From positions 753,713 through 817,712 of the forward strand of contig PLZJ01000002.1 of the NCBI GenBank assembly GCA_003152105.1: a DNA stretch of 64,000 nt, given 5' to 3'. Below are positions 41,741-58,253 of this stretch, in pieces (the stretch's first letter is position 1; every line of letters starts with the position of its first letter). The translations under genes and the position numbers were made by a program. Below the pieces are notes generated by a model, which worked only from the letters and a program-made list of their open reading frames with translations, did not search any database and had not been told where the DNA came from. The stretch comes from Candidatus Levyibacteriota bacterium. GTDB lineage: Bacteria > Patescibacteriota > Microgenomatia > Levybacterales > UBA12049.

Positions 41741-41769
41741 TTGACAGAATAAAGTTTTACAATTACTAT
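41741..41769 (+). promoter_or_regulatory. Promoter of fabH
   Basis: TTGACA-17-TACTAT, 8 nt before ATG 41778. Confidence 0.65.
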
Positions 41770-41777
41770 GTCTGCAA

Positions 41778-42809
41778 ATGCCAAGAGAATTTGGTCCTGC
41801 AATTACTAGTATTGGGAAGGGATTACCCGAACATGCGTTTAGCAATCAACAAATAATTGATGATTTCGGCGTTGATAGTTCTGATGAATGGATAAGAACC
41901 AATGTCGGCATCAAGCAACGATATATTGCAGGCCCTGAACAAGCAACTTCTGATTTCGCAGTTGCTGCGGCAACAAATGCACTTGAACGTGCCCGTTTAA
42001 AAGCATCTGATATAGATCATGTTATCGTAGCTACTGCAACGCCCGATTATCTATTTCCTTCAACTGCAGTACTTGTACAAGATCGTTTAGGCGCAAATGC
42101 AGGCGCACATGATGTAATGGCCGCATGTACAGGAGGTATTTATGCACTTGCAGATATGTGTTCTATGCATGAAGCCGATTTAATCGAAATTAACAAGTCG
42201 CTAGTTATTGGAGCTGAAACTCTTACTAGGCATGTTAATTGGGAAGATAGGGGAACTGCAGTTTTATTTGGCGATGGAGCAGGTGCAGTAGTTATTGAAA
42301 ATATTCCAAATCCTGGACTTATGAAATTTGTTCTTGGTGCTGATGGGTCACAAGCGAAAAGTTTATATATACCCTCAGGTGGAAGTCGGAATCCTATTAC
42401 AGAACAAGTACTAGAAGAAGGTAATGATGCAATTATTATGAATGGGCCAAAAACATTTAAACATGCTGTTAACCGAATGAGTGAAGCGGCTGAAGAAGTA
42501 ATGCAAAAAGCACATTTAACAGATGCGTTAGGAAATATTGATACAAGACATATAGATCATGTTATCCCACATCAAGCAAATGTTAGAATTATGAATGCAG
42601 TATGGAATCGTTTTGGTCTGCCAGTCGAAAAAAGAGTATCGAAAATTGAAAAATATGGAAACACATCTGCTGCTTCTATTTTTATAGCAATGAATGATGC
42701 ATATGAAGATGGGACCATAAAAAAAGATGACGTATTACTACTTGTGGCATTTGGCGCTGGTTTTACGTATGGAGCAGCTGTTTTACAATGGCAATTAGAA
42801 AATAAATAG
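41778..42809 (+). CDS. fabH: Beta-ketoacyl-ACP synthase III
   Basis: Intact Cys-His-Asn triad: AACTG, PHQAN.RI, GNTSAAS; DR.TAVLFGDGAGA; AFGAGFTYG. Confidence 0.95.
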   Translation: MPREFGPAITSIGKGLPEHAFSNQQIIDDFGVDSSDEWIRTNVGIKQRYIAGPEQATSDFAVAAATNALERARLKASDIDHVIVATATPDYLFPSTAVLVQDRLGANAGAHDVMAACTGGIYALADMCSMHEADLIEINKSLVIGAETLTRHVNWEDRGTAVLFGDGAGAVVIENIPNPGLMKFVLGADGSQAKSLYIPSGGSRNPITEQVLEEGNDAIIMNGPKTFKHAVNRMSEAAEEVMQKAHLTDALGNIDTRHIDHVIPHQANVRIMNAVWNRFGLPVEKRVSKIEKYGNTSAASIFIAMNDAYEDGTIKKDDVLLLVAFGAGFTYGAAVLQWQLENK

Positions 42810-42818
42810 TGCTATTTA

Positions 42819-43676
42819 TTACGAAACAAATATATCTTTATTTGCTTGTCTTTTTCCGACAAGTTGCATCCAGTCTCTTGGAAATGATTCTAGTTTTCCT
42901 GCCTTTTTCAATTTAACAAACATTTCATGTGCCGATTCTCTTAATACTTTTCTCGCCACTTCAACTGGAACTCCCGGCAATGTTCCTCCTGCAAAATCAG
43001 CATAATCACAAATTGCATCTACGTCACCCTCGTTCATTTCCACAGCTACTGTTTCTGCTGCAACATCAGTAATTCCTTTTGCTCTTGCAATTCCTACATA
43101 CTCTTCTTGCGTATGTTTAAAATAATTAAGAGGCTTTCCAGGAGAGTATCCCAAAGCTTGTGCTTTTTGTTTACCTAGAACCGCAAGTTCTCCCCATACT
43201 CGTGCTCTATTTCTTGGTGTATTTATATATCCACAACTTATGACAATTACTCCATCAGGACGTAATACACGAGCTGTTTCTTCAAATGCTTCTTCCACAT
43301 CGGTTAAGTGAATACTATTTGCAAAAACGACTACATCAAATTTACCGTCTTCTGCTGGAATTTCTTCAGCTTTACCAACTGCGAATGTTACCTCAGGACG
43401 AAAAGCAAATTTACGCCTTGTTGAAGCAATTGCACTTTCATCTGGATCTACTTCAAGAATTGTCCCACCTGCCAATACTTTATCCTCCTCTAGCAAGAGT
43501 TCAGTCATTGCTCCTTTTCCAGATCCAAGATCTAGTATATGTAGCGCTTGAGGAGCAAGTTGAATAGTCTGTCGATTAATTTCTCTATAAAAACGACGTC
43601 TAGTAAATCGCTCATAAGTATGATCAAAATCAGTAGGAACAGGTGGTGGTGTTTGATGTGTTTGTTCTGGGCTCAT
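42819..43676 (-). CDS. Class I SAM-dependent methyltransferase
   Basis: Motif I ILDLGSGKG, VD, AEEIP..DGKFDVV, ARVLRPDG; own promoter TTGACT-17-TATTAT (43720-43692). Confidence 0.9.
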   Translation of the reverse strand: MSPEQTHQTPPPVPTDFDHTYERFTRRRFYREINRQTIQLAPQALHILDLGSGKGAMTELLLEEDKVLAGGTILEVDPDESAIASTRRKFAFRPEVTFAVGKAEEIPAEDGKFDVVVFANSIHLTDVEEAFEETARVLRPDGVIVISCGYINTPRNRARVWGELAVLGKQKAQALGYSPGKPLNYFKHTQEEYVGIARAKGITDVAAETVAVEMNEGDVDAICDYADFAGGTLPGVPVEVARKVLRESAHEMFVKLKKAGKLESFPRDWMQLVGKRQANKDIFVS

Positions 43677-43797
43677 AATTAATTTAGACTGATAATAGTA
43701 GCTTTATCAATGGAAGTCAACAACTATTCCTTGAAAGATCTTGCAAAATAAAATAAAAACTGCTATTGTCTCAAAAGATTAGATCAACTCAACAATA

Positions 43798-45324
43798 ATG
43801 AATAAATCTGCAGAATATCTTGAAGCAAGAGCAGAAACATTGGGTGCACATCTTCATAAAGAACCTTCAAGTGGCGTTTCGATTACTGGATATGCTGCAT
43901 TAACTCCACTTGGTGACACGCAGGAAACTTTTGAAGGAATGTTAAATGGGCAGTCAGGTGTGGTTGAATTTGATGCAAATAATTTTGCGGTAAATGTAGC
44001 AGCACCTGTAAAACATTTCGACCCACTAGAACATTTTGATAGACGCGCACTCCGAGGTGTATCGTACGTTACTGCAATGGCTGATGTATTAACACAAAGA
44101 GCTGCCTTAGATGCTGGACTTATTCAGAGCACAAATGAAATGTTGGGCGACGAATTACCAAGTGGACAGAAACAAGATAGACATAAAATAGGAAGCTCAA
44201 TTGGAAGTGGCATTGGTCCAACCCCTAATATATTACGTATTTATCAACAATTATATAAAGATGTTGAAGGATTGGAAAGTAAATTAAGGCAAACAATTAA
44301 TCCTGAAGAAAGAAGTGAATTAGAAGGTGAAATAAAAGCAAAAATTAGAAAAAACTCTGAAAGAGTAGGACCATTGTGGGGACTGGAAATGTTCCCTGAA
44401 GAAGTAAATTCAGATCCATCTATGAAACTTGGTTATTCTGGACCAGGTATTAGCGATACTGCAGCATGTGCGACTGGACTTTCAAATGCAGTCGAATCTG
44501 TTCGAAAAATAAAAGAAGGTGAAAGTGAAAAAGATTTTGGTGGAGGTGTAGAAGCTATCTTAACTGATCCAAATAATATTCATATTGGTGACATTGGAAT
44601 TGCGTCATTTGCAGCACTTCGCCTTGTGCTTTCTACAGAATATTTTAATATTTTAAAGAAAACAATAACTAGTCCTGAAGAATCTAGCCGGCCTTATGAT
44701 CGAAATAGAGATGGATTTGTTCTGGGCGAAGGTGGAGCAGTTGTTTTATTTGAAAGATCTGATTTAGCAGCAGCAAGAGGAGCAAACGTACATGCAGAAG
44801 TTGTCGGATACAGTAAATCACTGGATGGTAAAGGTCAAACAGATTTGGATGTTGATAATGTTGCAAGAACTATTCTTGAAGCGTGCGAAAACCGTTGGAC
44901 TTATGAAATAGAAGTTCCTGATGTTATATTTGCCCATGCAACAGCTACAAAATCTGGCGACAGAGCAGAGGCAAAAGCATTGTATAAAGCATTTGGAAAG
45001 TTACTGCAAGACATTCCCATTACTGCAAATAAAAGTAATATCGGTCATTTAGCTGGAGGAGCGGGAAGTGTAAATCTAGCAATGGCGATAGAAGCACTTC
45101 GCCAACAACAAATTCCTCATATTTTAAATTTAGTTAATCCTAGATTAAATTTAGAAAATCCGGAAGAAGAAGATGATGAAGAAATAAACCATGTCGTTTT
45201 TGTTAGAAATGAGCCGCTTAAAGGAAACTTTCAAAAAGCACTTATACTTGGGTATGGTTTCGGGGGAAATAATGCTGCAATGTTGATTAGAAGACCAAAG
45301 CTTCATAACTTACTAGTTTATTAG
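43798..45324 (+). CDS. fabF: Beta-ketoacyl-ACP synthase II-like ketosynthase with insertions
   Basis: ITG....TPLG, TAACATG (Cys), SRPYDRNRDGFVLGEG, AHATAT (His), NKSNIGH (Lys/His), GFGGNN; promoter TTGCAA-17-TATTGT. Confidence 0.88.
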   Translation: MNKSAEYLEARAETLGAHLHKEPSSGVSITGYAALTPLGDTQETFEGMLNGQSGVVEFDANNFAVNVAAPVKHFDPLEHFDRRALRGVSYVTAMADVLTQRAALDAGLIQSTNEMLGDELPSGQKQDRHKIGSSIGSGIGPTPNILRIYQQLYKDVEGLESKLRQTINPEERSELEGEIKAKIRKNSERVGPLWGLEMFPEEVNSDPSMKLGYSGPGISDTAACATGLSNAVESVRKIKEGESEKDFGGGVEAILTDPNNIHIGDIGIASFAALRLVLSTEYFNILKKTITSPEESSRPYDRNRDGFVLGEGGAVVLFERSDLAAARGANVHAEVVGYSKSLDGKGQTDLDVDNVARTILEACENRWTYEIEVPDVIFAHATATKSGDRAEAKALYKAFGKLLQDIPITANKSNIGHLAGGAGSVNLAMAIEALRQQQIPHILNLVNPRLNLENPEEEDDEEINHVVFVRNEPLKGNFQKALILGYGFGGNNAAMLIRRPKLHNLLVY

Positions 45325-46971
45325 CTTAGGAATAATTGATCGCTTTACTACAGTCGCTTGCAAATCTTTTATGCCTCCGATAATTGTTCCTTCAGAAGAA
45401 ATAACGATATTACTACCAAATGTGCGTTTATCTAATTGAACAGTTTCTGCGTCATAACAAATTCCATCTCCAGCTCTGACTGTATGATTATCAAAAAAAT
45501 CTGTTTCCCCAATTCTTAAAAATAATGGCATTACATTTGTATCAATTTTTTCAAGATGAACAATGCCAGCTGCTTGGGCAGCACCTTCTATCAACTGATC
45601 TTCAAGTAAAGCAACAACTTCATCATTAGTAACTTGCTTAACCTTTAATCCTTTAATGCTCGCAGTAATTTTATTGTCATGTTCTCGAATTATAGAAACA
45701 TTATATGTGCCATCATCACAGAGCTGCGGTTCAACCCGCAATACTGTTTTTCCATCAGCAGATACAATTTCTTTAAACTCAACTTCTCTAAAGCCTACTA
45801 ACTTAAGATTTCCATCTCCTAATCCTAAATGAGATGAAATTAAGCCAATTGTTTCAATTGCTGCTCTAATTTGTTTGTGTCCTGGAAGTATTTTTGGCAA
45901 TCCACTTTCTGGAGCAAAATGCCCTTCTGCTAATAACTGATCAACATGAACGACACCATAATATGCGCTAGGATCGCCTTCTTTTTGTTTTACCGTTGTC
46001 ACAAGTTGCTGATCATTTTCTCTTGTGACTTGATTTTTTGTTGCTATTGCTCTTCCAATTCCAGATTTTCTATCTTCATCTTGATTATTTCTTTCCATAG
46101 TTTGTACGTAAACCTGTTGTGTTCCATACCACTGCTCAAGCATTGTTTGCGCATCTTCGATATCATTAAAAAATTCAGTATAACCGCTTGGAACTGATGG
46201 ATTTTTTAATAAAGCGATAACTTTTTCTCCTACCTCTGATGTTGGTACAGTTCTTGGGAGTCCAAGTTTATCCGATATAACATTATGCATATCCTCCGCA
46301 GAATACTGACCATTTGACTCTCTTTTTGCTGCTATATTAAATACCATAACATTTGCAGTATCTGGTACGATTGGTGGCGTTACTTCTAAAAATCGTATAC
46401 CCCGCTCTGCCATTTCTGCTTGTCGCTTATGAAGTGATTGTAAATCTTCATATTTGTGTCTGGCAACATTGTCGTATTGTGAAACTATTGATATGGCACC
46501 TCTGAGTTGTGGGTCAAAATGACCTGGCACACTTTGCAATCTAATGATTACACCTCCGTCATTCATGATAGGCAAAAATTGAGTTACTAAATCATTTGAA
46601 GCGTCACTGTTTAGCGCTTGAGTTGATCCAGATGTTACAAGAACTACATAATCTACTTTACCATTAAGCTTTTCTGCTGCTTCTTGAAATAACTGCTTTC
46701 TCCCTTCAGAAGTCGACATATCAGCAGATAAACCATAAGCTGTACCATTATTTTCTGAAACATCATGCAGCACCGTATTTGCCCGCTTTTGCTTATCTCT
46801 AAATGAAAATGCTACCGTTACTTTTTCAGCTGCCAATGCTTTAACGATTGCAGCTCCAATATCTCGATTACCACCAGATACAAAAGCGGTCTTGTCAACT
46901 AAAGAAAGTTCACGATTTATCTGCCTGTCTTGTATTATTTGATCTAATGTTACTGCTTGTTCTGGACTCAT
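45313..46971 (-). CDS. Fusion of an enoyl-reductase-like SDR and a FabZ/FabA-like double hot-dog dehydratase
   Basis: N-half Rossmann VSGGNRDIG with Y-x6-K (YDNVARHK); C-half GHFAPESGLPKILPG and LIEGAAQAAG hot-dog motifs. Confidence 0.75.
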   Translation of the reverse strand: MSPEQAVTLDQIIQDRQINRELSLVDKTAFVSGGNRDIGAAIVKALAAEKVTVAFSFRDKQKRANTVLHDVSENNGTAYGLSADMSTSEGRKQLFQEAAEKLNGKVDYVVLVTSGSTQALNSDASNDLVTQFLPIMNDGGVIIRLQSVPGHFDPQLRGAISIVSQYDNVARHKYEDLQSLHKRQAEMAERGIRFLEVTPPIVPDTANVMVFNIAAKRESNGQYSAEDMHNVISDKLGLPRTVPTSEVGEKVIALLKNPSVPSGYTEFFNDIEDAQTMLEQWYGTQQVYVQTMERNNQDEDRKSGIGRAIATKNQVTRENDQQLVTTVKQKEGDPSAYYGVVHVDQLLAEGHFAPESGLPKILPGHKQIRAAIETIGLISSHLGLGDGNLKLVGFREVEFKEIVSADGKTVLRVEPQLCDDGTYNVSIIREHDNKITASIKGLKVKQVTNDEVVALLEDQLIEGAAQAAGIVHLEKIDTNVMPLFLRIGETDFFDNHTVRAGDGICYDAETVQLDKRTFGSNIVISSEGTIIGGIKDLQATVVKRSIIPKLIN

Positions 46972-46975
46972 ATTG

Positions 46976-47872
46976 CTATTTAATAAGCGTCATCGCTTGA
47001 ACAACTTCAGGTTCTCTATGCGTTACTAAATATACTATCGCTCTCGCTGCATCTTCTGGAGTAAGATCATCGGAAGAGTTAAGAGAATCTCTTAAAAATG
47101 TTCTTTGCTCATCAGTTAAATCAGCTGTCAATGGAGTATCTACTAATGCAGGTCTTAGTATGCTTGTATAAATATCTCGTTTTACGTTTAACTCCGATGC
47201 AGTTCCAATTGCTATCGCTTCCATGGCACTTTTTGAAGCACTATAATTTGTTTGTCCAGGCAACATTGCATGTTTTCCAATGCTGGAAACGTAAACAATG
47301 TCTCCTCCTTTTGGATCTCTATTTCTAACCATTTTTTTGACTGCTGCTCGAGTTACAAAAAAAGCACTATCGACATTTGTACGCATCACATCATACCATT
47401 GATTCGTTTTCATTGTTAATATAAGGTTATCTTGTTTTGTGCCAACATTATTTACAACAACATCAATTCGTCCAAAAACATCAACTACTCCATTTATTAA
47501 TGCCTCTGCTCCTTCTTCTGTAGTAACATCAGCCGGAATAAAAACAGCATCCGCTCCGTCTCCAATCGCTTTTATTTCTTGAGCAGATAATTCACCCACT
47601 TCTTGCCTTTGAGGTCTGCCATTAATTACTACTTTCATACCCATTTCACCAAATAGCCGTGCGGTAGCAAAACCAATTCCTTGCGTAGAACCAGAAATAA
47701 CAGCCACTTTTCCAGCTAGTTTTTCTCGATCAACTGGAGGAAGCATATCAGGAGAGATACTGTTACCAAGTACACTTGAGATATTTTCTGGCGCAAGACT
47801 TATATTTATTTTCTGCGTAAGTGCTACATTACTTTGATTAGAGGATGATTCACGATCTTGTTCTGAGGTCAT
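46976..47872 (-). CDS. fabG: 3-oxoacyl-ACP reductase (FabG-like SDR) with N-terminal extension
   Basis: SGSTQGIG, FGRIDVVVNNVG...DNL...M....W..V..TN, VSS, PGQTNYSASK; promoter TTGACT-17-TATCAT (47916-47888). Confidence 0.85.
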   Translation of the reverse strand: MTSEQDRESSSNQSNVALTQKINISLAPENISSVLGNSISPDMLPPVDREKLAGKVAVISGSTQGIGFATARLFGEMGMKVVINGRPQRQEVGELSAQEIKAIGDGADAVFIPADVTTEEGAEALINGVVDVFGRIDVVVNNVGTKQDNLILTMKTNQWYDVMRTNVDSAFFVTRAAVKKMVRNRDPKGGDIVYVSSIGKHAMLPGQTNYSASKSAMEAIAIGTASELNVKRDIYTSILRPALVDTPLTADLTDEQRTFLRDSLNSSDDLTPEDAARAIVYLVTHREPEVVQAMTLIK

Positions 47873-47970
47873 ATATTAGTTTTGAAAATGATACTACTGA
47901 GTAATAGTTGAGTCAATATGTAGTTTTATAAAAAATTGACAAGCTATTTTCAATGTGCAATAACTTATAT

Positions 47971-51255: not shown

Positions 51256-54200
51256 ATGAATTATTTCTTTAAACATAAAATCCCTTTGTTTAAACAAAAA
51301 TTTTCATCATTAGATAAATTCCATAAGCTGAGCATAGGGATTGTATTATTGTTTATATTTGTAACCCCCTCGCTTGCACTTGTCACAAACTTATTCACTA
51401 ACGCCTCTTCCCTTGACTCATTCAGACTAGAGGCAGAACCAACTTCTACAAATAGTAATAGGTTATCTGGAAATGTTAGTGTGGTAACCGATACTAGTTC
51501 ATCTAACGGACAGGCTATACTATTTGGATCTAATGGAGTAAATGGTGCCAATGTTACTTTTAATCCATCAGTTATTCCCTTTTCTGCACCAGAGATAGGT
51601 AATCCATGGCACGGACAATATGAGTGGCAACAAGGACAACTGATCCCTTCACCATGGCCTGTTACAGATTCCTATCTTCGCTACGATACTGCGCCAACGG
51701 ATATAGGCTCTTGGGCTACTCTTGAACCAACACAGGGAAATTATGACTTCTCTTCAATTGATACAGCTTTGGCACAGGCAAAAGCAAATGGAGGCAAACT
51801 TGGAATAACAATTGCTGCTGCAAGAGGAGATATTACGGGTCAAGCATTTATACCAAATTATTTAATAAGTGATATGGCTGGAGATTCACAATCATACTGG
51901 AGTGGAGTTTCACCGGGAAATGGAGTATATGTGCCGGATTGGAATAATAGTTTTTTTATGACACGAGCGCAGGCTCTAATTAATGCGTTGGCTGCAAAAT
52001 ATGCAAATGACCCACGTCTTGGATGGATTGAAACCGGAATTTATGGAAATTATGCAGAGTGGATAAATGATGGTCTTCCAAATGGTCCAAGTGGTCAAAC
52101 ACCTGCTGTAATTACCGATGCAAATAAAAAAACATCATAGATTGGTGGGTCAACTCTTTTCCTAAAACTAGAATCTTAGCAGTTATTGAAGAAGATGGAG
52201 ATCAATATGGATTTAAATATGCCATGAGCTTAACTCCAAAACCTGGCTCTCCGGCTATTGGGTGGCGGTATAACAGTCTTGGGACCCTTGGACCAACTGC
52301 TAGTTATCTAACAGGACTTCAATATTGGGAAACACCACCACCAGCTGGTGCAGATGGAACAATACTATCGGAGCGATGGAAAACTGCTCCTGGTATAGTA
52401 GAATTTGGTGGTTTATCACCTTCTTCAACTACTGACTCACTTAATGATGCCTATACAGACGTGCTTCGTTACCACATTGATATGGTTGATGGAAGTTATT
52501 TTGATAACTGGAATAATTACTCAAGTGCTGAGCAGGCAACTTTGCAAAATATTATGGAACACTCGGGCTACAGAATTAGTCTTGATTCCCTAACACTGCC
52601 CTCAGTAGTCAGTCCAGGGAATAATTTTACAGTTTCTACTAATTGGTCTAATCTTGGTTCTACACCTGCATATAATCCATGGAATATCATGATTGAGCTT
52701 AAGGACTCATCTGGAAATGTTGCGTGGCAAGGAAAATCAAGTTTAGATTTTCAAACTCTACTTCCTACTAACTCAACAGGAACAGATATTCCAAATACTA
52801 CAACTGATACTTTCACAGTTCCTTCCAGTATTCCTTTGGGAACTTATTCTGTTTCTGTAAAAATAGTAGATCCAACAGGCTATTATAATCCAATGAATTT
52901 AGCAAATTCGGCAAAACAATCGGATGGAAGTTATTTACTTGGTCAAATTTCAGTTGGTAGCTTGGCTCCAACACCAACACTATCACCATCTGGAACTCCA
53001 ATAACTCCTACACCTATTACGAACTCGTCATTTCTTTGGCCAAATATACAAGGTAAAGTAGGAGCATTTTTTATAGGATTAAATAATAATTCAGATGTTG
53101 CACTAACTGCTGGGCAGGGTTTAAATCAAACTGTGCTTGATACAGTAAATCCAGGTAGTAGATTGGAAAATTTATATAATCAGTACAATTTTAAATACTA
53201 TGATTATTATGTCTGGAACCAAATCTACGGCAACTGTCAAACAAACCATGCAGCAGGATACGTTTGTCCATATTATCAAAACTCATCAAATCTACAGTCT
53301 GCATTAAGCGCAATTCAATCACATATTAATAGCAATAGTATTGCGACAGATAAAGCGGTAAGTGGATATGTCATTTTGGACGATTTTCCTGGAATTATTC
53401 CTCAAACATTCTTTGATCAAGTTGCAACTATGATACACAACGCCAATGCTGGATCAAATGGTATGACAAAATCAGCGATTTCCAGACCAACCATATGTGA
53501 CTTCGGAGGGTGGTTGGATTATAAGACAAGTGTAAACGGAGCTTGGAACCATAATGATAACGATATTACAAAACAATCTACAAATTTCTATCCTGCTGAT
53601 TGTGACATGGTCGAGCTTTATCCAGAATGCTACAACGAACCAGCAAATTATTCACATGGGGATTGGTGTGATTGGACAATGCAGGACACTACAGGAGGAA
53701 ATACGCCAAAAATAACTAGAGAATATAACATATTACAAAGTAAAGGTTGGGATATTACTAAAGAACCATTAATTGCCAATGCTCAGTCATATGGCTATAC
53801 CGCCGCCTACCAATCGGGAAGCGGAGTATATATTATTCCTCCTACAGGAATAGAGGAAAGTACTTTAATAAAGTCATATTGTGATACTGGAGCAACTTCT
53901 GTAAATGATTTTGCCTGGGATGATCCTGCTCATGCCTCAAATATTAAATCTGAACTTGCTAACGATTCAGGCATGTATAGCGGATTTTTGAGTGGTGTAA
54001 ATTACTGCAAATCTAAGTGGGGAATAGCTATGGGCCCTTCCTCATCCAAAATAGCAAATGTAAATTCATCATTTAATTTAATATCAATGCTTGGTAAGCT
54101 TGTGCAACATTTTACTTCTATGTTCAGTGCACACGCGCAAACCCTAACACCAACCACAATTCATTTGATTTCAGGTTACTCCGGCACCAATACTGGGGGT

Positions 54201-55385
54201 AACACAATTGTTTTTGGACCTCCAAGTGGATACTCAGCAGATGATGTAATGATTGCGCAAATTACAACCCAAGGAACACCAGGAATAACACCTCCTGATA
54301 GTAGTTGGAACGGTATTAAACGTACAAACACAGCTTCAAACTCTTTGGTTCAAGAATTATATTATCATGTAGTAAAAGCTAGTGAACCATCGACCTATAC
54401 ATTTACCTTCACATCCCCAGAACAAGCTTCTGGAGGAGTTGCTGATTATAGTGGAGTTAATACTTCAAATCCAGTAGATCAGGTTAATCAAGGATCAGCT
54501 CTTAACTCTAGTAATATTTCAGCCGCAAGCATAAATGTTAATGCAACCGGAGAAAGACTTATGTTTTTTGGAGGATCACTTTCGAATACATCCTTTACAC
54601 TTCCAACTGGCATGTCACAAGTATGGCAAAAAGAAAATACTGCCATTTCATCTAATTTAGCGGACTTATATACCAATGCTGGCTCAACTGGGGTTATAAA
54701 TGAAAGCAGTGCAGTTTCAGCAGATAATGTTGCACAAGATTTATTACTTCAACCAGCAGGTTCAACTTTTACAAATCCCACGCCAACTTCTACTCTTTCA
54801 ATATCTCCTACCCCAGTCTCAGCTTCACCTACACCCAGTTGTTCTCCTTTACCTAGTGGAAAAGGTACAGATGTTATTACCTTTACAGTACCAACAGGCA
54901 CTAACTCTTATAACGTCTGGTTTAGAATGAAAGTACCAACTTCTGGCGACTCAATTTATTCACAACTTACGGACAATTCCGGCAATGCATTTGGATGTCC
55001 ATCACAAATTATTGATAATAATACAGTAGATGGAAACTGGCACTGGATTCCTCAAGGTCAAAATTCCTTAACCCAGGGACAAACTTACACATTTACTTTG
55101 ACTGGAAATCAAGATGGAGTTAAAGTTGATGAAATAATATTGTCTCAAACATGTGGACCAACAGGAGTAGGCGATAACTGTCTAGCTGCTCCTACACCAA
55201 CACCTACCTTAACACCTATTCCTTCACCTACAGCTGTTCCAAGCCCAATTACAACATCTACTCCTACGCCTGTCAGACCTACTCCAACATCTACACCTCT
55301 AAGTTGCAAAAAACTTTCTATTAATTGCTATTATACAAATTTAAGTACCTGTTCTTATGTTTGCGGAGACACAAAACATAAGTAG
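51256..55385 (+). pseudogene. Giant secreted glycoside-hydrolase-like protein (GH42/DUF4832-like, second barrel, beta-domains, PT linkers) split by a 1-nt frameshift
   Basis: ORFs 51256-52140 and 52224-55385 join if the A7 run at 52126-52132 were A8: ...TDANKK|NIIDWWVNSFPKTRILAVIEEDGDQYGFKYA|MSLTP, with no stop. Confidence 0.8.
55191..55297 (+). repeat. Pro/Thr-rich C-terminal linker repeat
   Basis: [36 protein letters not shown]. Confidence 0.75.
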
Positions 55386-56378: not shown

Positions 56379-58253
56379 ATGGATGATTCATTAATATCTG
56401 AAGAAAATAAACCAGTTGATTATTTAATTGAAGGCGAGGGTCAAAATGCAACGATTTCTAGTCCTGAAAGAGTAATAAATGATATACCTGAAGCAGCTGT
56501 AGAAAAAGCAAAATCAAGTAGAGAACTAGTTGAGACAAAACTTCGCCCACAAGATATTCAAGATCAAGCGGGTTTTAGTCGAAGAATATATTCTTTTATT
56601 ACTTTAACTGGAAAAGAAACTAAATTTTCTCTTAGAGGAAGATACGAATTACCAGAAACTGATAGTTCATTTAAAGATATAGGTACAAAACCTCTTGATG
56701 ATGTATTTGTTGGTAATGAGTTCCAAAGTTATAAATCATCACATCGTAGTGAAGCTGAAAGAATTCAAACTACAAAAGATTTCGAAGGCTTCATTGCACT
56801 TTCTGACCAGTTAATTCCTGATAATCCAAGAGTTGAGCAGGCAAAACAAGACATACAAAATGGTGTATATAGCGATGATACCATTACATTTATTAATGAG
56901 CTGGTAGCTACTAGCATAATAGATGACAAAGGTTTAGTTAACAGTGAAATCAATGCTGATGCAGAAGCCTTAATGATACTAGCTTTAAGTGGTAACGCAG
57001 AAGCTCAACGTTTAGTTCAAAGTAAGTCAGAAGCACTTCTTAGAATGGATGATGAGAAAAAACAAAGGGCAATAACAGAAGGAAAATTAAGAGTAGAAGG
57101 AGAATTGAAAGATGTTCCAGATGCGGATATGTCAAGACATTCTCTGGTTCATATTTACGAAGGTCCAGTTGAAAGAGACGAGCATGGAAATGTTATTTTA
57201 AGATCAACTGCATACAGACCAAAAGCCGCCCCATTTGGTCAAGTAATCTTAAGAGACACTATACATACTTCAATAGATGGACCTGTCGGAGAACATGATT
57301 TAGGTAGCTGGGATGATATTGATACTGTAGTAGTTGCTAAAGCAAAAAACAATATTGATAAGGCAGATACAATTAGGCCAGAAGATACCTACTTTCATAT
57401 ATATCCACATCAGGCATTAACCCTTGAAGAAGCAACGGGTATTGTTCCAGGAGAAGTGCCTGAAGATGCGATTATATCAAAGCTGCCTGATGGTAAAACA
57501 ATACTATATAGACGAAATGGATTTACTGTCAGACATTTACAAGAGTATTTGAAATTAAACCCAGAAGCACCTCATGCTCTTACTTCCATTTTAAATAATG
57601 AAACATTTGTTGATTTAGGAAGCATAACAGAAACCGTAAACGCTCTTACGCAATCTTTAAATGAAGACGATGCTTCTTTAAGAGCTGAACCTGCATTAAC
57701 TAAAGGATTAATCAATGTTTATTCAAAAGCTGGAGTAGAAAGATTACAATCGAAATCTAAGAATCCTAGTGACTCCGAATTCCCCACGCTAAGTCGTGAA
57801 GAAATTGCTAAAAGAATAGCTCATTTAATTATTGGAAGGCTGCCTACAGAAATAAGAAATACTGCTGTCAAAGAAGCTATTAGGGATCAAGGCAGCGAAA
57901 TGCATACTATTATGGCTCATGGATGGCAAAACGAACATGATATTGAGATAATTAAATATGCTCTAGAAAGAGGTATAAGTACTGGCGAACACATAAATAC
58001 AATTGCTAGTGAAACTACTGATAAAATCGCTGATGCTTTTGAGTCTGCTGGCACAGAAGGAGGAATTGATAATAATTACATGCCATCATGGGGAGATGCA
58101 ACAGACGATGAAACAAAGGTTGTAGATGTAGTAAAATATGGATACAATTGGAAAAAATATTCATATTCACCTACTCCTAAAGAGATACTTGAATTAGCTC
58201 CACAAACTAGAGCAGATATCTACGATTCCGGAGTATTAACAGCTAGGATATAG
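56379..58253 (+). CDS. Large acidic hypothetical protein (624 aa)
   Basis: Long ORF, no recognisable motif or TM segment; TGnTATACT 6 nt before ATG. Confidence 0.85.
   Translation: MDDSLISEENKPVDYLIEGEGQNATISSPERVINDIPEAAVEKAKSSRELVETKLRPQDIQDQAGFSRRIYSFITLTGKETKFSLRGRYELPETDSSFKDIGTKPLDDVFVGNEFQSYKSSHRSEAERIQTTKDFEGFIALSDQLIPDNPRVEQAKQDIQNGVYSDDTITFINELVATSIIDDKGLVNSEINADAEALMILALSGNAEAQRLVQSKSEALLRMDDEKKQRAITEGKLRVEGELKDVPDADMSRHSLVHIYEGPVERDEHGNVILRSTAYRPKAAPFGQVILRDTIHTSIDGPVGEHDLGSWDDIDTVVVAKAKNNIDKADTIRPEDTYFHIYPHQALTLEEATGIVPGEVPEDAIISKLPDGKTILYRRNGFTVRHLQEYLKLNPEAPHALTSILNNETFVDLGSITETVNALTQSLNEDDASLRAEPALTKGLINVYSKAGVERLQSKSKNPSDSEFPTLSREEIAKRIAHLIIGRLPTEIRNTAVKEAIRDQGSEMHTIMAHGWQNEHDIEIIKYALERGISTGEHINTIASETTDKIADAFESAGTEGGIDNNYMPSWGDATDDETKVVDVVKYGYNWKKYSYSPTPKEILELAPQTRADIYDSGVLTARI

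What the first reader, a model, noticed from the sequence alone, without database searches (positions are those of the whole stretch)
41741..47916. ACP-less but otherwise complete FAS-II-like elongation cycle plus methyltransferase in a CPR-type genome
Seen: five adjacent genes between obgE and a surface-glycanase region, in alternating orientation (+,-,+,-,-) with four separate sigma70-like promoters. They encode FabH (C-H-N triad intact), a SAM methyltransferase, FabF (C-H-H intact), an enoyl-reductase-like SDR fused to a dehydratase, and FabG. Together these give condensation, ketoreduction, dehydration and enoyl reduction. No ACP, FabD, ACC or acyltransferase gene is in or near the cluster; the intergenic gaps (about 120 bp or less) cannot hold an ACP. 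Established: Patescibacteria are generally described as lacking fatty-acid synthesis and obtaining lipids from hosts. Inference: one of three things. (i) A rare CPR lipid-making or lipid-remodelling pathway working on CoA thioesters or an ACP encoded elsewhere. (ii) A methyl-branched or specialised acyl-chain pathway. (iii) Enzymes that act on the host's acyl-/malonyl-ACP pool to redirect host lipid synthesis toward the symbiont. This is the best candidate for an undescribed system in the window.
Basis: partly seen in the sequence, partly recalled or inferred. Interest (0 to 1): 0.9.

Follow-up and report, generated by a model that had tools for sequence, protein, structure and literature searches.

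The report
Symbiont fatty-acid enzymes lacking their carrier
A tiny host-dependent bacterium (Levybacteria, CPR) keeps intact genes for every step of the fatty-acid chain-extension cycle plus a methyltransferase, but has no carrier protein or CoA supply to run them, so the enzymes likely work on the carrier protein of its host cell.

Summary
Confirmed. Five intact genes (FabH, methyltransferase, FabF, enoyl-reductase-like SDR fused to a double FabZ, FabG) lie in a 97.7%-complete Levybacteria genome. No ACP, phosphopantetheinyl transferase, FabD, biotin carrier, biotin carboxylase, CoA synthesis, PlsX/Y or CdsA was found in it. An orphan AccD-AccA fusion, IspH and two PlsC fusions lie elsewhere. 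Both borders are bridged by contigs. In 245 genomes of the order, 95 carry at least one Fab enzyme and 81 of those have no ACP domain. FabD, whose only known job is loading ACP, is the commonest orphan. Catalytic residues are invariant, and FabF keeps its ACP-docking arginines. One genus holds the full pathway with ACP; its enzymes mostly have short N-termini and ordinary composition, while carrier-less copies are Arg-shifted and often carry disordered N-terminal tails. Best reading (0.45): enzymes delivered to the host to act on its ACP pool. Import of host ACP (0.2), CoA-only chemistry, decay and a missed carrier remain open. Export, host and product are untested. The scan noted similar clusters in four other genomes; I found none in print in 8 searches.

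The parts
41741..41769 (+). sigma70-like site TTGACA-17-TACTAT ending 8 nt before the fabH start (consensus match only)
41778..42809 (+). FabH, 343 aa, triad C117-H265-N295; R270 at the position of E. coli R249; almost no N-terminal extension
42819..43676 (-). Class I SAM methyltransferase, 285 aa, unnamed family with an N-x-I-H motif (H123 in 139 of 144 relatives); next to fabF or fabH in 9 genomes seen
43692..43720 (-). sigma70-like site TTGACT-17-TATTAT upstream of the methyltransferase
43798..45324 (+). FabF, 508 aa, C224-H380-K412-H417; Arg at the positions of E. coli K65, R68, K128 and R206; about 20-aa N-terminal extension and a long helical insertion
45313..46971 (-). 552-aa fusion: enoyl-reductase-like SDR (Y166-x6-K173; nearest model PRK07806) plus a tandem FabZ pair with one split site (H351 + E462); residues 1-19 predicted disordered
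46976..47872 (-). FabG, 298 aa, S197-Y210-K214, about 48-aa N-terminal extension; likely co-transcribed with the fusion gene (4-bp gap)
47888..47916 (-). sigma70-like site TTGACT-17-TATCAT upstream of fabG

Best explanation
The five genes encode an intact set of fatty-acid elongation enzymes that has no carrier in its own genome and likely works on the host's acyl carrier protein, most likely after delivery into the host cell. Shown: the genes, their catalytic residues, the missing ACP/PPTase/FabD/BCCP/CoA genes, and the same carrier-less pattern across the order. Inferred from family knowledge: FabH primes and FabF extends acyl-ACP with malonyl-ACP, FabG reduces, the tandem FabZ dehydrates and the SDR domain reduces the enoyl-ACP. 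Inferred, untested: the host supplies holo-ACP, malonyl-ACP and acyl-CoA; the methyltransferase likely adds a methyl branch to a beta-ketoacyl-ACP intermediate; the orphan AccD-AccA and PlsC fusions act in the same place; the result is more, or differently shaped, lipid for the epibiont to take. The route of delivery is a guess (type IV secretion, with the disordered N-terminal tails as signal). About 0.65 for 'uses a foreign ACP', 0.45 for 'inside the host'.
For: (1) No ACP, PPTase, FabD, BCCP or biotin carboxylase in a 97.7%-complete, 4-contig genome, by Pfam and by profiles built from the order's own divergent copies. The nusB-rnc slot that holds an ACP-like gene in G028 is empty here. (2) No CoA or acetyl-CoA supply and no phospholipid route found: CoaBC, CoaD, CoaE, PDH E1, POR, AMP-binding ligase, PlsX, PlsY, CdsA. 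(3) 95 of 245 order genomes have FabH, FabD, FabF or the fusion; 81 of the 95 have no ACP domain and 50 carry one enzyme only. Of 80 of the 95 re-searched, 13 have an ACP domain, 14 a PPTase, 11 both and 64 neither, so the two searches agree. (4) FabD is the commonest orphan (54 of 245), with Q/S/R/H intact in 35 of 35 proteins; FabF C/H/K/H are intact in 29 of 29. (5) This FabF keeps Arg at four of the six ACP-interface positions tested in bioRxiv 10.1101/2020.07.09.196451. (6) The five proteins have K/(K+R) 0.47-0.55 and pI 5.0-5.5, against 0.64-0.89 for 17 of 18 housekeeping enzymes of the window. The shift below neighbouring genes is seen in 28 of 28 genomes without a stand-alone ACP (median -0.18) but is +0.01 to -0.10 in the four genomes of the one genus with the full pathway, at similar GC. 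That genus also has short N-termini on the fusion, FabG, FabD and FabH. (7) Three VirB4-like ATPases are present; a relaxase-free T4SS is widespread in CPR (bioRxiv 10.1101/2025.01.22.634366).
Against: No export, host or product is shown. The full-pathway comparison rests on one genus. 3 of the 28 carrier-less genomes (G044, G104, G188) fall in its composition range, and ACP-bearing G043 shows -0.12. FabF has the same N-terminal extension in the ACP-bearing genus, 11 of 26 carrier-less FabDs have none, and this FabH has almost none. FabG has Asp at the position of E. coli R129 (role of R129 recalled), and FabF has Gly and Glu at K69 and R127. The paper shows R206 acts in catalysis rather than binding. 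The enzymes co-occur more than chance (fusion with FabF 15 against 4.3 expected; kin not independent), as a lost pathway would. Broken copies exist in G078 and G125. A bacterial host already has these enzymes, so the benefit must be flux or product shape. The VirB4-like genes were not shown to form a secretion system.
Confidence: 0.45

Rival explanations
1. The enzymes stay in the CPR cell and act on holo-ACP, acyl-ACP and malonyl-ACP drawn from the host cytoplasm, extending or methylating chains for the CPR membrane.
For: Same carrier-less pattern and kept ACP surfaces. Two PlsC fusions could use acyl-ACP. No export step is needed.
Against: Needs protein import, for which no route was found. 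No PlsX/Y or CdsA to finish a phospholipid. Does not explain the composition shift against the cell's own enzymes.
Confidence: 0.2
2. An ACP-independent cycle on CoA thioesters inside the CPR cell makes or edits a special acyl product (the reading of earlier scan note e1-6993422).
For: This genome lacks FabD as well as ACP, as a CoA route would. FabG has lost one recalled ACP-binding Arg. AccD-AccA is present.
Against: No CoA synthesis, acetyl-CoA source or acyl-CoA ligase found. No BCCP or biotin carboxylase, so no malonyl-CoA. Intact FabD in ACP-less relatives has no role in such a route.
Confidence: 0.12
3. The genes are remnants of an ancestral FAS-II that is being lost piece by piece and do little now.
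For: Patchy distribution, a complete set in one genus, broken copies in G078 and G125, long branches.
Against: Whole frames and invariant catalytic residues at 30-50% identity. Many lineages keep single enzymes without ACP.
Confidence: 0.13
4. An ACP, PPTase and FabD exist but lie in an assembly gap, or an unrecognised carrier replaces ACP, so this is an ordinary in-cell FAS-II.
For: Four contigs, not closed. The order's ACPs can be very divergent (Pfam E about 1e-7), and my profile was built from those already found.
Against: Five or more genes would have to be missing together. C1 and C2 overlap by 25 nt. 46 of 52 high-quality carrier genomes lack an ACP domain.
Confidence: 0.1

Closest known systems
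Bacterial type II fatty-acid synthase (E. coli FabH, FabF, FabG, FabZ, FabI with AcpP, AcpS, FabD, AccABCD)
   Same: All four reactions of the elongation cycle plus FabH, with catalytic residues aligned to the E. coli enzymes.
   Different: No ACP, PPTase, FabD, BCCP or biotin carboxylase; reductase and dehydratase fused; FabZ duplicated into a split-site pair; a methyltransferase in the module; N-terminal tails.
Double-hotdog dehydratase domains of type I FAS/PKS (His and acid on different repeats; recalled)
   Same: His kept in repeat 1 and Glu in repeat 2.
   Different: Arises from a recent-looking FabZ tandem: single-repeat forms with both residues exist in the family (P0029-P0031, L014). 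Fused to an SDR, not part of a megasynthase.
FabI/FabL enoyl-ACP reductases and the uncharacterised PRK07806 SDR subfamily
   Same: Y-x6-K aligned to FabI Y156/K163; best model PRK07806, E 2e-27.
   Different: Below the cut-offs of PRK07806 (96 of 162 bits) and FabL; structure searches return generic SDRs. The activity is inferred.
BioC-BioH pimelate route and PKS C-methyltransferases (both recalled)
   Same: A SAM methyltransferase tied to the Fab cycle; conserved His after strand 4.
   Different: BioC model 39 of 185 bits. The position where PKS enzymes have a Glu is Asn/Ser here. Relatives include Dehalococcoidia proteins.
Phage auxiliary metabolic genes and T4SS effectors (recalled as concepts)
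   Same: Single intact enzymes of a pathway kept without the rest, useful only with a host's machinery.
   Different: Here the holder is a cell living outside the host; delivery of biosynthetic enzymes by CPR is not shown in the papers I read.

Membership tests
Type II fatty-acid synthase | KAS III with Cys-His-Asn triad | tested here: met
   TIGR00747 339.5 above 292.1; C117-H265-N295
Type II fatty-acid synthase | Elongating KAS with Cys-His-His | tested here: met
   C224, H380, K412, H417; below the FabF equivalog cut-off
Type II fatty-acid synthase | Ketoreductase with Ser-Tyr-Lys | tested here: met
   S197, Y210, K214; best PDB matches include FabGs
Type II fatty-acid synthase | Hotdog dehydratase with His and Glu | tested here: met
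   hhalign to E. coli FabZ: repeat 2 probability 94%, repeat 1 42-48%; H351 and E462. No structural match obtained for this domain.
Type II fatty-acid synthase | Enoyl-ACP reductase | tested here: inconclusive
   Y-x6-K motif matches FabI, but no family cut-off is reached
Type II fatty-acid synthase | Acyl carrier protein and phosphopantetheinyl transferase in the genome | tested here: not met
Type II fatty-acid synthase | FabD and a complete acetyl-CoA carboxylase | tested here: not met
   No FabD; AccD-AccA only, no BCCP or biotin carboxylase
Type II fatty-acid synthase | Makes acyl-ACP in vitro | not testable with these tools
   needs an assay
BioC malonyl-ACP O-methyltransferase | TIGR02072 score above cut-off | tested here: not met
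   39.3 against 184.95; 2 of 9 family members match at all
PKS-type alpha-C-methyltransferase | His-Glu catalytic pair (recalled) | tested here: inconclusive
   His in 139 of 144; the likely partner position is Asn in 118 of 144
T4SS-delivered effector | Secretion ATPase in the genome | tested here: inconclusive
   Three PF19044 matches at E 1e-22 or better; other components not checked
T4SS-delivered effector | Translocation into a host cell | not testable with these tools
   needs co-culture; the host is unknown

The most novel reading that the evidence does not exclude
Levybacteria inject a variable kit of lipid-synthesis enzymes (Fab enzymes, a methyltransferase, carboxyltransferase, PlsC, IspH) into their host and run the host's ACP pool as an outsourced, tailored membrane factory: cellular 'auxiliary metabolic effectors', recognisable by Arg-shifted composition and disordered N-terminal tails. 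One genus holds the whole pathway with its own ACP and could make its own fatty acids.
Probability: 0.35. Interest if true: 0.92.

Novelty: new variant of a known kind. Interest (0 to 1): 0.72.

Why it matters
How CPR bacteria get membrane lipids and what their type IV secretion system carries are both stated as open (PMC11665869). This set gives named, testable candidates for both. Each enzyme can be tried in E. coli K-12 fab mutants, which asks directly whether it works on a foreign ACP. The order-wide pattern also suggests that 'incomplete pathways' in CPR genomes may be host-directed tools rather than leftovers. A Levybacteria genus with ACP, PPTase, ACC, FabD/H/F/G and the fusion is an exception to the view that CPR cannot make fatty acids.

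Tried and rejected
Recent transfer: rejected. GC3 of the five genes is 0.16-0.20 against a genome median of 0.22. Named relatives of the fusion are Levybacteria or Microgenomates at 42-45%. 29 order FabFs lie on one side against 6 non-CPR FabFs, support 96, in a quick tree with few outgroups and long branches. FabH is the exception: its named hits are Bacillota and others at 43-50%, so its origin is open. Chimera: rejected; contigs bridge obgE-fabH and fabG-next gene with even depth in run X1, which may be the source sample. Hidden ACP: the best hit of the custom profile is ribosomal L7/L12, E 0.14. Complex of the fusion with E. coli ACP: no answer, score 0.00. Single-sequence fold of the dehydratase half failed, pLDDT 33; both structure searches were filled by SDRs. 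No RNA holder listed. Gene context of the methyltransferase outside CPR: not obtained; 0 of 200 other genomes of the phylum sample match it. A genome-wide N-terminal motif test was weak: 18.5% of 81 acidic, Arg-shifted proteins against 3.8% of the rest, confounded by Glu content. Rows dropped: 5 of 34 fusion hits (E 1e-21 to 1e-26); 47 of 87 PF08541 hits above E 5e-13, which may be HMG-CoA synthases or divergent FabH (not checked); 15 FabH-only genomes left out. Two of the 29 kept fusion hits (G018, G226) are SDR-only and G053 is split. Literature: 8 searches found no description; subscription journals are mostly outside this library and I read no supplements.
Full report
Observation. FabH passes its family cut-off and has C117-H265-N295. 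FabF has C224-H380-K412-H417. FabG has S197-Y210-K214. The 552-aa protein folds with pLDDT 92, residues 1-19 disordered. Its SDR half places Y166 and K173 on FabI Y156 and K163; its C-terminal half is two FabZ-like repeats, the first keeping the His (H351) and the second the Glu (E462). Relatives with one repeat keep both residues, so the pair looks like a FabZ dimer fused into one chain with one site. Sigma70-like sites lie just before three of the four transcription units, but their total number is at chance level.

Organism and assembly. The genome has 1,215,035 bases in 4 contigs, 97.7% complete; C1 and C2 overlap by 25 nt. Named relatives of the fusion are Levybacteria and Microgenomates. 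Contigs from peat runs bridge both borders, with even depth in X1 (X1 may be the source). GC3 is at or below the genome median. In a quick tree, 29 FabFs of the order form one side against 6 non-CPR FabFs, support 96. The genes are old residents; FabH's origin is less clear.

What the genome lacks. No ACP, FabD or PPTase by Pfam, with controls ringing in 10-11 of 14 genomes, nor with profiles built from the order's own divergent ACPs, FabDs, PPTases and biotin carriers, nor with E. coli, Thermomicrobium and Parabacteroides queries. nusB and rnc are adjacent here, whereas G028 has an ACP-like gene between them. The biotin-domain hits fall in two 480-aa proteins, the one I read being a membrane-fusion-type subunit beside an RND gene, and the ATP-grasp hits include CarB-, PurK- and Ddl-type proteins. 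CoaBC, CoaD, CoaE, PDH E1 (the hit is transketolase-like), POR, AMP-binding ligase, PlsX, PlsY, CdsA, Dxr and IspG were not found. Present elsewhere are a 629-aa AccD-AccA fusion facing an IspH-like gene (named by eye) and two proteins joining a PlsC-like domain to a ketopantoate-reductase-like domain. Each is an enzyme whose carrier or substrate this genome cannot make.

The order. Of 245 genomes, 34 match the fusion profile (29 kept), 36 have FabF, 54 FabD, 87 match PF08541 (40 kept as FabH), 14 a carboxyltransferase and 25 an ACP domain, 11 of them stand-alone. 95 genomes carry at least one of the four Fab enzymes; 8 have a stand-alone ACP, 6 only a fused one, 81 none, and 50 carry a single enzyme. 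In 80 of the 95, 13 have an ACP domain, 14 a PPTase, 11 both and 64 neither; 6 of 52 high-quality genomes have an ACP domain. The profile found no ACP beyond those it was built from. Catalytic residues are intact in 29 of 29 FabFs and 35 of 35 FabDs recovered whole. One genus (G210-G213) has ACP, PPTase, FabD, FabH, FabF and the fusion in all four genomes; the AccC-AccD-AccA fusion with an adjacent biotin carrier was read in G211 and G213. Gene order is fluid: G002 has plsC-fabG-fusion-fabF-MT in one direction, while many genomes hold the fusion alone at its locus. Broken copies exist in G078 and G125.

ACP surfaces. bioRxiv 10.1101/2020.07.09.196451 (passages) names K65, R68, K69, R127, K128 and R206 of E. 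coli FabF. This FabF has R, R, G, E, R, R there. FabH keeps the Arg of E. coli R249 and FabG that of R172 but has Asp at R129 (these three roles are recalled).

A compartment hint. The five proteins have K/(K+R) 0.47-0.55 and pI 5.0-5.5; 17 of 18 housekeeping enzymes of the window lie at 0.64-0.89. Against neighbouring genes the Fab proteins are shifted in 28 of 28 genomes without a stand-alone ACP (median -0.18) and by +0.01 to -0.10 in the full-pathway genus at similar GC. The first motif of the fusion starts at residue 11-24 in that genus and 22-62 in 16 others; FabG and FabH follow the same trend. Against this: it is one lineage, three carrier-less genomes overlap its range, FabF has the tail in both groups, and 11 of 26 carrier-less FabDs have none.

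Methyltransferase. It lies beside fabF or fabH in 9 genomes; I looked only in loci fetched around Fab genes, so the link is biased. The family has 142 representatives at E 1e-30, with His123 in 139 of 144, and includes Dehalococcoidia proteins. It is far below the BioC and UbiE cut-offs. A methyl branch on a beta-ketoacyl-ACP is my inference from the His motif (PKS motif recalled); a BioC-like ester is the alternative.

Mechanism. A cell with no ACP, no CoA route and no phospholipid route cannot run these enzymes alone. Intact FabD kept without ACP in dozens of relatives points to a carrier from outside. Any subset of enzymes can add to a host's own FAS-II, which fits the many one-enzyme genomes. 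I therefore favour action on host ACP (about 0.65), inside the host (0.45) rather than after import of ACP (0.2). CoA-only chemistry (0.12), decay (0.13) and a missed carrier (0.1) remain. Three VirB4-like ATPases offer a route, unproven.

Literature. PMC11665869 (passages) says lipid synthesis is missing in Patescibacteria, lipid uptake is unexplained and the T4SS role is unknown. bioRxiv 10.1101/2025.01.22.634366 (passages) finds VirB4 in 2,417 of 3,035 CPR assemblies, mostly without relaxase. PMC11608272 (passages) lists fabGZ in CPR; PMC12455944 (passages) reports an acquired acpP; PMC13014828 (passages) treats CPR as unable to make fatty acids. bioRxiv 10.1101/465690 was seen as a listing only. 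Eight searches found no description of this set. Four earlier scan notes describe similar clusters in other CPR genomes; they are unchecked leads, and the order-wide carrier test and composition contrast are my own.

Verdict. Real, intact, lineage-resident and carrier-less; not a member of FAS-II by the carrier criterion, though it works like one. New variant of a known kind, interest 0.72; categorically new if delivery to the host is shown.

Noticed in passing
G000:C1:521602-524498 (L002, L003): AccD-AccA fusion (629 aa) facing an IspH-like gene; no BCCP, biotin carboxylase, Dxr or IspG found in the genome.
   Followed up: partly
G000:C2:215454-217391 (L001) and C1:545384-547231: Two proteins join a PlsC-like acyltransferase to a ketopantoate-reductase-like domain, in opposite domain orders; a relative lies in the full Fab cluster of G210 (L102:4396-6297).
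   Followed up: partly
L097, L098, L099, L102, L076-L080 (G210-G213): A Levybacteria genus with a near-complete FAS-II: divergent ACP with an insertion, PPTase, AccC-AccD-AccA triple fusion, divergent biotin carrier, FabD/H/F and the fusion.
   Followed up: partly
L084:1465-2778 (G101): FabD fused to a C-terminal ACP-like domain, next to a PPTase.
   Followed up: partly
L061-L075, L079: 14 order genomes carry about 820-870-aa proteins with an ACP domain; the one scanned is AMP-binding + ACP + PlsC, a likely fatty-acid scavenging route that rarely co-occurs with the Fab set.
   Followed up: partly
L082:1492-1725 (G028) and L027:5873-6127: ACP-like proteins without the canonical DSL motif; the first sits between nusB and rnc.
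   Followed up: no
L283-L285 (G113, G187, G188): Larger clusters with two or three condensing-enzyme-like genes, separate SDR and hotdog-like genes and PlsC, again without ACP.
   Followed up: no
L289, L290 (G099, G120): ACC triple fusion with an adjacent biotin carrier; G099 (97% complete) has no ACP domain.
   Followed up: no
window 51256-55385: A GH42-like ORF (294 aa) and a DUF4832 ORF (1053 aa) in different frames, 83 bp apart, may be one gene broken by a frameshift.
   Followed up: no
window 56379-58253: 624-aa acidic protein with no Pfam match and the same Arg-shifted composition as the Fab proteins.
   Followed up: no
G000 whole genome: No match to E. coli undecaprenyl-diphosphate synthase at E 0.01, despite a large glycosylation gene set noted by the scan.
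   Followed up: no
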